Part shown: positions 22,385-57,149 of the stretch, piece by piece
How the letters are laid out: each line of letters starts with the position of its first letter
Numbering within the stretch: position 1 is the stretch's first letter
Source: Eledone cirrhosa
Lineage: Eukaryota
Direction of reading: 5' to 3'
Length of the DNA stretch: 64,000 bases
Assembly: GCA_964016885.1 (NCBI GenBank)
Contig: OZ024743.1
Location: 24,304,001-24,368,000, forward strand
The notes under the pieces: model-generated
Database searches by the model: none
Told to the model about the DNA's origin: nothing
Seen by the model: only the letters and a program-made list of their open reading frames with translations
Translations under genes and position numbers: made by a program

Positions 22385-22534
22385 TCGTCAGATAAAATAC
22401 ATGAATTGGTGTATGACATACCTCAACGGTCTTGATGGTTCAATTCCAGTATTGGCAGTACTGCCAATACTGGAATTGAACCATCAAGACCGTTGGAGTA
22501 TGTCATACATCAATTCATGTATTTTATCTGACGA
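22385..22534. repeat. 150-bp near-perfect palindrome with no spacer
   Basis: Centred on ggcagt|actgcc (22459/22460). Confidence 0.9.
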
Positions 22535-22585
22535 GGACGTACTGGAAAAACAGCACAGTACCTTCGAAATATATATAATAAAACA
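22520..22585 (+). ncRNA. Type I hammerhead ribozyme
   Basis: tattttat CTGACGA gga-c-gtactg-loop-cagtac-c-ttc GAAA tatata TA ataaaaca. Confidence 0.8.
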
Positions 22586-22894
22586 TATATTTTGATTATG
22601 TGAATGTCTTCATTTATTAATATTCTGAATAATATATATAAATATATATATATATATATATATATATATATATATATATATATATATATAATCTATGTAT
22701 ATATATATATATATATATATATATATATAATCTATGTATATATATATATATATACATAGATTATATATATAGAGAGAGATTATATATATACATAGATTAT
22801 ATATATACATAGATTATATATATATATATATATATATATATATATATATATATATATAGAGAGAGAGAGAGAGAGAGAGAGAGAGAGAGAGAGA

Positions 22895-23050
22895 AATGGC
22901 TTCTACAGGATGAGAACTGTTTAATTCGGGAGAAATCAATGATTTCTCTCGAATGAAACAGTTCTAGTCCTGTAGAAAAATATGTATACTCTGCTATGTA
23001 TTGAGTACTTTACTTACTGTGGTTAATTCCGATTGAACCCGGGGTAAACT
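22895..23050. mobile_element. pLTR-like family D foldback (palindrome 22901-22977); related copy at ~49800-49927
   Basis: ttctacagga..agaactgttt..attcgggagaaatc aat gatttctctcgaat GAAAcagttctagtcctgtagaa. Confidence 0.6.
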
Positions 23051-24090
23051 TATATATATATATATATATATAAAAAAGCTGAAATCGAAAATGCAACTGG
23101 AGTCTTATTTTAAAAATAAAATATATATATATTTTTTAAAATAAGACTCCAGTTGCATTTTCGATTTCATCTTTTTTTCTTTATACTTTCACTCGTGTAG
23201 GACACCTCGGTTATTTTTCATTTTGTAAAAAAAACCTCACTTTCTAATATATATATATATATGCAATATATTTGTACAGTCACTCACTCTCTCTGACTGA
23301 CACACACACACACACACACACACATTGGAGATTCTTTTAACTGAGCAGTTTGCATTTTTTGGAGAACGGAATGAGTTGAGGCTTATACTATTCTATGTGG
23401 CAGGTTTTGGCATGTGTTCACTCTATATCAATACATCAATGGGACACCACATACTTCTCGAATAGGGATCTACCAGTCACACGTTTTTTCTCGAGTACTC
23501 GAATCAACACATCTTTATTAAACCTTACAAAAATCGCTAGATCCTTTTTCAATTTTCCCAATTCCTACCCATATAACTAACTATATATATCTATCAAAAT
23601 TCATCTCTCTCTGTACACCACACACACACACACACACTGACACACACATGCACTCACATACATATACATACACACAGATACACACAGATACACACACAGA
23701 CACACACAGACATATATATATGTATTAGAAATAGAATCTTTCGCCGTATTTTTGACTAAAGCTAATTTAGCTTGATAGTGGTGTTTAGGAACCCCCTAAG
23801 AAATGGAAAAAGATGAGTATTGACGTACATGTGAATCGAACCCACAATAGCGTTAAGAGCCTCTTCCTTCCATATCAAGCGTTAACCTAATATATCCCTT
23901 CCATATACTGTACCGATTGTGATGTTATTTCTGTTAACCTTTTACATATACATATGTATATATTTATATATTTATATATTTGTACACTCACTCTCTCTCT
24001 CTCGCTCTCTCACACACACACACATATGTCCCAAGGCTCTGATACCATCAACACTATAAACACAGATCTAGCATATCTAAGAACTCATTA

Positions 24091-24146
24091 ACTGCCTGAT
24101 GAGGTCATAGCCATTCAATGGCTATCATCAAAATATATATAGCAGT
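24091..24146 (+). ncRNA. Type I hammerhead ribozyme, probably inactive (GAAA>AAAA at 24130)
   Basis: actgc CTGATGA ggt-c-atagccat-tca-atggctat-c-atc AAAA tatata TA gcagt. Confidence 0.65.
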
Positions 24147-24429
24147 AAATAAAGGATCATGAGTTCATGCAATTGACTTATGTTTCGTCACTATATATAT
24201 ATATATATATATATATATATATATATATATATATATATATATGTGTATATATATATAAATAGAGAGAGAGAGAGAGAGAGAGAGAGAGAGAGAGAGAGAG
24301 AGAGAGAGAGAGAGAGAGAGAGAGAGAGAGAGAGCTTTGTGCATACAAGGATTTTCATCATTCATTTGCTCCAACATGGATGAGCTGTGGCTAAAGAACA
24401 ACACATCATTTTCGAATAACGATTACCAT

Positions 24430-54130: not shown

Positions 54131-54998
54131 GACTACTACTACTACTACTACTACTACTACTAATATCAAAACTACCACCGCCACCGCCACCGCCGCCACT
54201 GCCGCCGCCACCCCACTGCTGCTGCTACTACTAATACTACTACTACTACTACTACTACTACTACTACCTCTACCACTACTACTACTACTACTACTACTAC
54301 TACTATTACTACTACTACTACTACTACCTCTACTACTACTACTACTACTACTACTACTACTACTACTACTACTACTACTACTACTACTACTACTACTACT
54401 ACCACCACCACCACTGCCACCACCGCCGCTGCCACCGCCAACCGGCTACTACTACTACTACTACTACTACTACTACTACTACTACTACTACTACTACTAC
54501 TACTACTACTACTACTACTACTACTACTACTATTACTACTACTACTACTACTACTAACACCACCGCAACTGCCGCCACCGCCGCTGCCGCCGCCAACCGG
54601 CTACTACTACTACTACTACTACTACTACTACTACTACTACCACCACAACTGCCGCCACCGCCGCTGCCGCCGCCACCTCGCTACTACTACTACTACTACT
54701 ACTACTACTACTACTACTACTACCACCACCACCACCACCACCACCACTGCCGCCACCGCCGCTGCCACCGCCAACCGGCTACTACTACTACTACTACTAC
54801 TACTACTACTACTACTACTACTACTACTACTACTACTACTACTACCACCACCACCACCACCACTGCCGCCACCGCCGCTGCCACCGCCAACCGGCTACTA
54901 CTACTACTACTACTACTATTACTACTACTACTACTACTACTACTACTACTACTACTACTACTACTACTACTACTACTACTACTACTACTACTACTACA
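54131..54998. repeat. (CTA)n/(CCG,CCA) higher-order compound repeat
   Basis: Recurring gccgctgcc.ccgccaaccggcta blocks between CTA runs. Confidence 0.9.
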
Positions 54999-56029
54999 AT
55001 AACATTAGCAGAGACGAGACCAACAACAAAATACACCGAAATCAACAAGGAACAATGAGAAAACAATGTAGAAGATATATTGTCCTCAAGCCTGCGAAGA
55101 ACACGCATGCTCGTCGGAAAGTCAGAAGCGATTAAGAATTTCAATATGATATTCTATACTCTGAGGATGGGGTAGCTGTTTCCTGAGTACATAGACATCA
55201 TTTAGAAAGGCTCTAAACTCTGAAAGTATATAAACCGCAGAGACAGAAAATGACTGTACCCATTTCCAGCTAGAATTGAAAAATACCTGTGGAGCACTGT
55301 AGTCTACAAACCCAGTAAGCTGTAACAATAGCAGCACCATCATGCAAGTATCAGAATAATGTATTGACCCCACTACAGTGATGGCAATATTTAAGAGCAC
55401 AGTGAGACAATACAACACAACACACTGCTCCCTACAGTTTTGTGTATTAAAGTGTCTTGCTCAAGGACGCACGCAATGCACCACCCGGTCCGAGAATCGA
55501 CGTCGAGATCTTACATGAGCGGGTTGAGGGTTATCCAGTCTGAGCTCTTGCCATCGCCACAACAGGGAACCGCAGGCTGCAGTTGTGATGAGAAACCAGC
55601 CGCGTCATCAGGCTACCCAGAATTTTTATTTATTAATGATACTATTTGATATAGATTCACGATGATTAGATCTGCCCATATACAGACCGTTGGTTAAATA
55701 ATGTATAGATATATTCTACAGTACAGCAGTGCACTAACACGGTAATATATATATATATAACACGCCCCCACTCTCAAGAGCGTGAGACTAATAAACCTTT
55801 GTTTGTACTGCCTCTCTGGTTTTGTTCCCATTCCAGTTTTCACTATATATATATATATATATATATATATATATATATATATATATATATATATATATAT
55901 ATATATATATATATATAAGATAAAAATACTTGAGTGTATTAGAGTCAAACACACTCGTCGTATTAGAGAAATGACAGTATAGGAGATAGCTCAATGTTAT
56001 CAAACAGAGCCGAAAAATTATATAAATTA

Positions 56030-56107
56030 ACATTAAAAATCTTCATTTGCTGACAATGTTTCGTCCCATGGGACGAAACATTGTCAGCAAATAAAGATTT
56101 TTAATGT
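56030..56107. repeat. Palindrome centred on gtcccatgggac, each arm carrying an HHR-like 3' half (GAAAC att GTC agca)
   Basis: Direct reading. Confidence 0.85.
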
Positions 56108-56309
56108 ATTAAAGGCTTCTTTGTTAATTTATATATAATATATATATATATATATATATATATATATATATATATACATGGAAAGTTATATTTAAATTGT
56201 TGGGTTAACAACGAGTAAATATTTATAACTGATATAAAAGCACTCAACAAGTATTTGGAGTATATTTATGATATTAAATAAATGGAAACTATATTTATAA
56301 AACCATATT

Positions 56310-56375
56310 TATTTCGTTATATATATTTCAGGGATATCATATTAACAATATGTTATGCCTTCTTCAGACAAAATA
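56310..56375 (-). ncRNA. Type I hammerhead ribozyme
   Basis: tattttgt CTGAAGA agg-c-ataacatatt-gtt-aatatgatat-c-cct GAAA tatata TA acgaaata. Confidence 0.85.
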
Positions 56376-57083
56376 CAATATAAACAGTCTTATAAATAAA
56401 TAGATACGACATACCTTTCAATCACCTTGCATTTGGGAGGTTGATTTGGCAGTAAAAAATATTGTGGACAGTTGTAAAAAGAAAGAGAGAAAGAAAGAAA
56501 GAAAGAGAAACGAAGAAAATGAAAAAGAAGAAATGCATGTGACTAAATAGAGAGATATAGAAAGATAGATAAAGAGAAGAACTTCATGTAAAGAAACAGA
56601 GAGAAATATATATAGAGAGAGGAAAAAAGAAAGAGATAGATAGAGATAGATAGAGAAACTAGGAAGTTGAGTATCGGTTGATACATTTATTTATTTATTT
56701 ATTTATTTATTTAGCTCTAGTATTAATGTAAAGAGAGATGTATGTAGTTAAGAGAGAAAATAGCCGTTATATAGAGAGAAAAAAGAGAAAATGAAAAAGA
56801 GAAAATGAAAAATAACCAGACATAAACGAGGCAGAATTTAAAAACGCTATGTTTCATCCTGTAGAAAATATTAGTTCGTATAAAACAGGCATTATAATGT
56901 AAATATCAGTATTCATTTAGTCACATGCATTTCTTCTTTTTCATTTTCTTCGTTTCTCTTTCTTTCTTTCTCTCTTTCTTTTTACAACTGTCCACAATAT
57001 TTTTTACTGCCAAATCAACCTCCCAAATGCAAGGTGATTGAAAGGTATGTCGTATCTATTTATTTATAAGACTGTTTATATTG

Positions 57084-57149
57084 TATTTTGTCTGAAGAAG
57101 GCATAACATATTGTTAATATGATATCCTTGAAATATATATAACGAAATA
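57084..57149 (+). ncRNA. Type I hammerhead ribozyme (inverted copy of 56310-56375)
   Basis: Same fold as 56310-56375. Confidence 0.85.

What the first reader, a model, noticed from the sequence alone, without database searches (positions are those of the whole stretch)
22520..57149. Sequence-diverse type I hammerheads share a stem-II C-C mismatch and a palindromic TATATA loop III
Seen: HHRs at 22520 (+), 24091 (+), 49607 (-), 56310 (-) and 57084 (+) have different stem II sequences. All read 3 bp, a C-C mismatch, then a long helix: gga-C-gtactg/cagtac-C-ttc; ggt-C-atagccat/atggctat-C-atc; ggg-C-gtaccaa/ttggtac-C-ctt; agg-C-ata/tat-C-cct. The HHR at 35844 keeps the 5' C as a bulge and swaps the loop to another palindrome (tgcgca). 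Stem I covaries (tattttat/ataaaata versus tattttgt/acgaaata). Known: PLE-associated minimal HHRs have palindromic stem-III loops and are thought to cleave as dimers. Inference: the conserved C-C is a selected tertiary or protein-contact feature defining an HHR subtype that may be undescribed.
Basis: partly seen in the sequence, partly recalled or inferred. Interest (0 to 1): 0.72.

Follow-up and report, generated by a model that had tools for sequence, protein, structure and literature searches.

The report
Retrotransposon hammerheads keep an unpaired cytosine
These six motifs are copies of a predicted self-cutting RNA at the tail end of Penelope-like jumping genes, present over 70,000 times in this genome; across many divergent families one cytosine in the second helix stays unpaired, likely as a contact point, and a likely poly(A) signal follows the predicted cut site.

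Summary
Observation largely confirmed. The six motifs are type I hammerheads in the 3' pseudo-LTRs of Hydra-clade Penelope-like elements (PLEs); full Hydra RT-endonuclease ORFs flank the same motifs elsewhere in the genome. C10.4·C11.4 occurs in 44,550 of 49,066 TATATA-loop matches, and a restored C-G pair in only 268. The TGCGCA-loop family has C·pyrimidine in 21,599 of 22,451, so the 'bulge' at 35844 is one copy's lost T. In 14 family representatives, 10.4 is always C and never paired (partner C, U or A) while flanking pairs covary. The conserved feature is an unpaired C10.4, not C·C as such.

Corrections: 56310 and 57084 are arms of one insertion; 24091 has G12A and is likely dead. Against: one low-copy family pairs C10.4-G; copy 5' ends are not enriched at the cut site (196 vs 200 control); no RNA data; Lünse 2017 could not be read. 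New here: AAUAAA/AUUAAA lies within 18 nt of the cut in 12 of 14 families.

The scan already found the unpaired C on another piece of this genome (e1-9529214). Verdict: new variant of a known kind; the C's role is inferred.

The parts
22520..22585 (+). Type I hammerhead, GGAC family; C10.4 at 22538, C11.4 at 22562, predicted cut after 22577; AATAAA 22577-22582
22385..22534 (.). Inverted (palindromic) 5' end of the 22520 insertion; centre about 68 nt upstream of the core; the left arm stops just after CUGACGA
   Evidence: self-alignment (150 nt, 96%)
24088..24149 (+). Hammerhead of the GGTC-ATAGCC family with G12A at 24130 (likely inactive); C10.4 at 24106, C11.4 at 24126; AATAAA 24148-24153
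   Evidence: intact family copies in L063, L065
35844..35913 (+). Hammerhead of the TGCGCA-loop family; C10.4 at 35862; one T lost from the 3' strand of stem II (family state C·U); predicted cut after 35905
49607..49668 (-). Hammerhead of the GTACC family; C10.4 at 49650, C11.4 at 49630, predicted cut after 49615
56310..56375 (-). Hammerhead of the AGGC family, left arm of an inverted insertion; C10.4 at 56357, C11.4 at 56333, predicted cut after 56318
57084..57149 (+). Hammerhead of the AGGC family, right arm of the same insertion; C10.4 at 57102, C11.4 at 57126, predicted cut after 57141; AATAAA 57146-57151
56178..57190 (.). One 5'-truncated, head-to-head Hydra PLE insertion in (TA)n: minus arm about 56178-56916 (3' UTR, hammerhead, long tail), plus arm about 56917-57190 (short tail); ends approximate
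   Evidence: 778 nt at 96% to L055, which carries the ORF

Best explanation
These are type I hammerhead motifs in the 3' pseudo-LTRs of Hydra-clade Penelope-like retrotransposons, predicted to cut only as dimers through an 8-bp palindromic stem III, and their unpaired cytosine C10.4 is likely kept by selection as a base-specific contact, most likely for the element's own RT protein. Shown: element identity, copy numbers, conservation pattern, palindromes, and that inserted copies nearly always span the cut site intact. Inferred: a tandem transcript carries two hammerheads 3.3-3.9 kb apart that pair through stem III; the weak 3-bp proximal stem II plus mismatch leaves the ribozyme mostly unfolded alone; protein binding at or near C10.4 would assist or time cleavage; a cut would part the ORF from the AAUAAA just downstream. 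The window copies are truncated, solitary or opposite-strand remnants and are likely inert.
For: Hydra-type ORFs lie on the same strand about 1.1-1.3 kb upstream of the TGCGCA and AGGC motifs, and between tandem hammerheads in L057, L058, L059. C·C in 44,550 of 49,066; C-G in 268; C·Y in 21,599 of 22,451 TGCGCA matches. In 14 family representatives 10.4 is C in 14 and paired in 0 (10 C·C, 3 C·U, 1 C·A), while 10.2/11.2 and 10.3/11.3 are paired in 14 of 14 with 4 and 3 pair types. ORFs of the AGGC and TGCGCA families are about 46-55% identical. C-to-G would add 3.6-6.7 kcal/mol to stem II in 9 of 10 folds (0.4 in the deleted copy), yet G copies show no significant clustering (P 0.47, 0.07, 0.23). 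Proximal stem II pairs have probability up to about 0.5 in 9 of 10 monomer folds. Precedent for a protein-assisted PLE hammerhead: PMC11167929.
Against: No activity, expression or binding data. 5' breakpoints at the cut site (196) equal a control window 16 nt downstream (200) in the one family tested. A low-copy family (TTTC-TCT, CATATG loop) pairs C10.4 with G (L333, L344, L348, L350). The 14 families are related and hand-picked, 2 came from a search that fixed C10.4, and no tree-based test was run; the other seven 5' stem positions show only 2-4 states each, so one invariant column is moderate evidence. No base in stem I sits at a fixed place to pair with C10.4 (by eye). G10.1-C11.1 is present in only 2 of 14 representatives. 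Only three families (TGCGCA, AGGC, AAGC-GCACC) were tied to full ORFs; the others rest on shared architecture or flanks.
Confidence: 0.6

Rival explanations
1. The mismatch is a brake: it shortens the proximal stem II to 3 weak pairs so that most RNA stays uncut and usable as template; base identity is secondary.
For: Inserted copies span the cut site and show no breakpoint excess there. Proximal pairs are poorly populated. G10.1-C11.1 is mostly lost. Unprocessed RNA was the main insertion substrate in PMC11167929.
Against: Any mismatch should serve, yet the 5' base is C in 14 of 14 representatives while the partner varies.
Confidence: 0.2
2. C10.4 makes an RNA-RNA tertiary contact with stem I or its A-rich internal loop, replacing the loop II contact of canonical hammerheads.
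For: It sits where canonical stem II ends and loop II begins; helix I/II contacts are needed for fast cleavage (PMC6155905 passages). Stem I extensions with bulges are visible by eye in several families.
Against: No co-conserved partner at a fixed offset; the A-rich hexamer shifts from about +4 to +13 between families. PLE hammerheads are described as lacking tertiary contacts.
Confidence: 0.12
3. Frozen accident: one ancestor lost the G partner when stem II lengthened, and descendants simply inherited it.
For: By my count of File S2, 15 of 25 published Hydra families have C at 10.4 paired to G, so the C is likely ancestral. Families are not independent.
Against: Neighbouring pairs changed on both sides several times while 10.4 did not, and the partner changed to U and A but never to G as a family in the T-start loop set.
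Confidence: 0.08

Closest known systems
Hammerheads of Hydra-clade PLEs (Craig et al. 2021, PMC8557442, section 11 and File S2)
   Same: Type I hammerhead near the 3' end of a single-ORF RT plus C-terminal GIY-YIG element inserting into (TA)n; short quasi-palindromic stem III; C often at position 10.4.
   Different: Published rows have a paired 3-7 bp stem II with a short loop and no C·C; here stem II is 3 bp, mismatch, long distal helix, and stem III is a perfect 8-nt palindrome. The Hydra-1_oBim motif differs from all families here.
Minimal PLE hammerheads (Cervera and de la Peña 2014, PMC4209133)
   Same: Palindromic stem III, dimer model, long stem II, many dispersed truncated copies, opposite-strand pairs, AU-rich 3' flank.
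   Different: Their consensus has an extra base after A9 and conserved G10.1-C11.1. Among the 56 rows of Fig. S3 read as text I saw no C·C at position 4; single rows have C·A (S. purpuratus 1) or U·U (C. sinensis 2) there, and D. virilis has a mid-helix bulge.
Anolis Poseidon (PAc) hammerhead (Frangieh et al. 2024, PMC11167929)
   Same: PLE pseudo-LTR hammerhead, tail downstream, uncut RNA inserted.
   Different: Different PLE clade; its ORF starts within stem II, whereas here the ORF starts about 240-280 nt downstream. No mismatch is mentioned in the parts read.
Canonical type I retrozyme hammerheads
   Same: Same core, palindromic loop III; such tandem 311-bp units exist in this genome.
   Different: 4-bp stem II with a 6-7 nt loop, no mismatch, tandem non-coding arrays.

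Membership tests
Type I hammerhead ribozyme | Core CUGANGA, GAAA, UH with stems I and II, open at stem I | tested here: met
   5 of 6 window copies have a full core; 24096 has G12A. Covarying stems.
Type I hammerhead ribozyme | Match to an Rfam hammerhead model | tested here: not met
   No hammerhead family among hits for 57040-57180 and 22500-22620 at E up to 10 or among the 150 of 395 rows shown for the window; long stem II and tiny stem III likely fall outside the models.
Type I hammerhead ribozyme | Self-cleavage | not testable with these tools
   Indirect breakpoint test gave no excess.
Dimer-cleaving PLE hammerheads | Stem III unstable as monomer, palindromic | tested here: met
   AUAUAUAU and AUGCGCAU are perfect palindromes; duplex -3.2 and -10.5 kcal/mol, monomer hairpin +4.7.
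Dimer-cleaving PLE hammerheads | Conserved G10.1-C11.1 with an extra base after A9 | tested here: not met
   G-C at 10.1/11.1 in 2 of 14 representatives; registers fit without an extra base.
Hydra-clade PLE | Single ORF, RT then C-terminal GIY-YIG; RWK-like and DKT motifs | tested here: met
   L052, L058, L059: RRLRW, SDKTNN, YRDD, YFGST. RWK appears as RW(T/I/R). Same motifs read by eye in the Hydra-1_Obim consensus.
Hydra-clade PLE | CxCX5C linker, CxxC and CxH around conserved E and N, no CCHH | tested here: met
   Alignment A1: CNCR....CP invariant in 5 of 5; CxxC in 3 of 5; CxH in 5 of 5.
Hydra-clade PLE | Insertion into (TA)n, 5' truncation, partial tandems, inverted copies, tail | tested here: met
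Hydra-clade PLE | Phylogenetic placement with reference Hydra RTs | not tested
   No tree built; Pfam and PDB gave no informative hit.

The most novel reading that the evidence does not exclude
The Hydra PLE hammerhead is a protein-gated switch: the RT reads the unpaired C10.4 and decides between cutting the RNA just ahead of an AAUAAA signal or leaving it whole for polyadenylation, read-through and reverse transcription. This would explain why PLEs keep hammerheads that barely cut.
Probability: 0.15. Interest if true: 0.75.

Novelty: new variant of a known kind. Interest (0 to 1): 0.47.

Why it matters
What hammerheads do in Penelope-like elements is stated as unclear in PMC8557442. One base kept unpaired across divergent families, against a 4-7 kcal/mol folding gain, gives a precise mutation target, and the adjacent poly(A)-type hexamer suggests a testable link between cleavage and 3' end formation. 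The motifs also escape Rfam here, so more than 70,000 copies in one genome would go unannotated.

Tried and rejected
Rfam: no hammerhead hits. Cleavage fossils: no excess of 5' ends at the cut site in the TGCGCA family, 196 vs 200; the two patterns differ in length, so the comparison is rough. Sequencing runs: no RNA holder listed; contigs of three runs showed common variants at 57113, 57128, 57129, 57143 and none listed at 57102 or 57126, weak because only close relatives align. Metagenome scan: 80 of 112 loci shown and examined, none with convincing stems I and II together. Pfam and PDB: nothing informative. Lünse et al. 2017 not held; seen only as cited in PMC6765202. A 4-nt reading of loop III was rejected because stem I pairs only in the 6-nt register and TGCGCA and CATGTG loops are 6 nt. 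Coding constraint was rejected because the motif lies outside the ORF. No covariance model or R-scape run was made; pair counts were done by script on anchored positions. Relatives look-up of earlier findings was empty.

Full report
OBSERVATION. All six motifs are present. A degenerate scan that required a core, three stem II pairs, a palindromic loop and stem I returned exactly these six in 64 kb. Five read 3 bp, C·C, long helix. The copy at 24096 has AAAA for GAAA; G12 is the general base (established knowledge, recalled), so this copy is likely dead. The copies at 56367(-) and 57092(+) share 124 nt at 100% identity and are the arms of one inverted insertion. The copy at 35852 lacks one T of a run present in its family, so its 'bulge' is private. 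Position labels (10.4, 11.4, G12) follow standard hammerhead numbering, recalled.

GENOME-WIDE COUNTS. With stem II unconstrained, the TATATA-loop pattern has 49,066 matches (control 164). Both Cs are present in 44,550 (control 5). 10.4 is not C in 2,958 (control 103); by eye the 100 listed are mostly point mutants, chance hits or nested matches inside another family's stem II. C10.4 with another partner: 1,793 (control 56), including one recurring C·A family. C10.4 with G: 268 (control 7). The TGCGCA-loop pattern has 22,451 matches (control 4), 21,599 with C10.4 and a pyrimidine at 11.4; all 43 copies of its main cluster in my loci read C·U. A looser pattern gave 114,683 matches against 4,526 and showed TATGTA-loop variants with C·C as well as canonical retrozyme-type hammerheads without it. 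Counts are pattern matches; they overlap slightly and are not independent events.

WHAT THE ELEMENT IS. [quoted passage not shown] The hammerhead lies about 1.1-1.3 kb after the stop codon and, in tandems L057 and L059, about 240-280 nt before the start. Copies end in (TA)n, carry an optional tail and often form head-to-head pairs. Full ORFs were tied to three families (TGCGCA, AGGC, AAGC-GCACC). The endonuclease fragments in L061, L062 and L064 are Hydra-type but I did not prove which hammerhead they belong to. The window's 56178-57190 insertion matches L055 over 778 nt at 96%. Pfam and PDB gave nothing.

CONSERVATION. I took one representative for each of 14 families seen in my loci (hand-picked; two came from a search that fixed C10.4; a canonical 4-bp-stem hammerhead in L070 was left out). 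Paired counts: 10.1, 11 of 14; 10.2, 14 of 14; 10.3, 14 of 14; 10.4, 0 of 14; 10.5, 12 of 14; 10.6, 13 of 14. Position 10.4 is the only one of eight 5' positions that never varies; its partner is C (10), U (3) or A (1). Restoring C-G would stabilise stem II by 3.6-6.7 kcal/mol in 9 of 10 folds. Copies with G do not cluster significantly by nearest neighbour in three families (3 of 8, 5 of 10, 3 of 5; P 0.47, 0.07, 0.23), which fits post-insertion mutation, though samples are small.

MECHANISM. Stem III is an 8-nt perfect palindrome that cannot close as a monomer but forms a duplex, the dimer route described for PLE hammerheads (PMC4209133 parts 1-2 of 4; PMC6765202 section 11 part 2 and passages). 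Tandem elements place two sense copies in one transcript; the window's copies are alone or on opposite strands. Monomer folds populate the three proximal stem II pairs poorly. 5' ends are not enriched at the cut site in the TGCGCA family (196 vs 200 in a window 16 nt downstream), so integration templates were uncut or religated, as in PMC11167929 (parts 1-2 of 4), where cleavage needed protein. I therefore favour a weak, dimer-dependent, protein-assisted ribozyme in which C10.4 is a recognition base. A brake or an RNA tertiary contact remain open. These steps are inference.

POLY(A)-TYPE HEXAMER. AATAAA or ATTAAA lies between -1 and +18 of the predicted cut in 12 of 14 representatives, against 0 of 70 nearby windows of equal size, and in all six window copies. 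In five families it overlaps an A-rich stem I strand and could follow from pairing; in 7 of the other 9 it lies after a GC-containing stem. Its offset varies, which suits a processing signal better than a fixed contact. The control windows are U-rich, which flatters the contrast. It also appears beside hammerheads without C·C and, by eye, in several rows of Fig. S3 of PMC4209133, where the flank is labelled only AU-rich. Copies end 45 nt or more past the cut and in (TA)n, so use as a poly(A) signal is not shown.

COMPARISON AND NOVELTY. File S2 of PMC8557442 lists 25 Hydra families with paired stem II; by my count 15 have C10.4 paired to G and none has C·C. Text of the 56-row alignment in PMC4209133 shows no conserved C·C; two single rows have another mismatch at a similar place. 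Four full-text searches found no description: 'hammerhead ribozyme' + 'stem II' + 'C-C mismatch' (0 papers), hammerhead + octopus + ribozyme + retrotransposon, Penelope-like + hammerhead + polyadenylation signal, hammerhead + stem II + mismatch + dimer + Penelope; for these I saw listings only. PMC6155905 was read as passages and bioRxiv 10.64898/2026.07.22.740005 as part 1 of 5 (supplements closed). Lünse et al. 2017, the paper most likely to show such variants, was not held, and figures were not visible, so the absence claim is limited.

VERDICT. A real, conserved structural variant of a known PLE hammerhead, already noted by this scan elsewhere in the same genome. Function of the cytosine is untested. 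Interest 0.47.

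Noticed in passing
window 22577-22582, 24148-24153, 35905-35910, 57146-57151; loci: AATAAA/ATTAAA directly at or after the predicted cut in 12 of 14 families; possible poly(A) signal overlapping stem I. No earlier scan note held these words.
   Followed up: partly
TGCGCA family loci; window about 35783 and 22459: 5' ends cluster 65-73 nt upstream of the core in 20 of 50 copies, at a native TCATATG; either a transcription start or fold-back at a short palindrome. 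The sample is not random.
   Followed up: partly
   Followed up: no
L002, L033-L059 tails: An ACTC...GAGT hairpin-like motif recurs in the long tail of several families; candidate RT binding or initiation site.
   Followed up: no
L097-L100 (G000:C1:1239857-1244284): Tandem array of 311-bp units with canonical type I hammerheads (4-bp stem II, UAACAA loop, CGCG loop III), retrozyme-like.
   Followed up: no
window 29754-31325 (minus), 62656-63495 (plus), 36333-37896: Decayed non-LTR retrotransposon RT fragments (YADD-type and RTE-like).
   Followed up: no
window 11437-13501: Long tandem array with a period of about 30 bp.
   Followed up: no
L333, L344, L348, L350: Old hammerhead family with CATATG-type loop, U·U at 10.1/11.1 and C10.4 paired to G; useful natural control.
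   Followed up: partly
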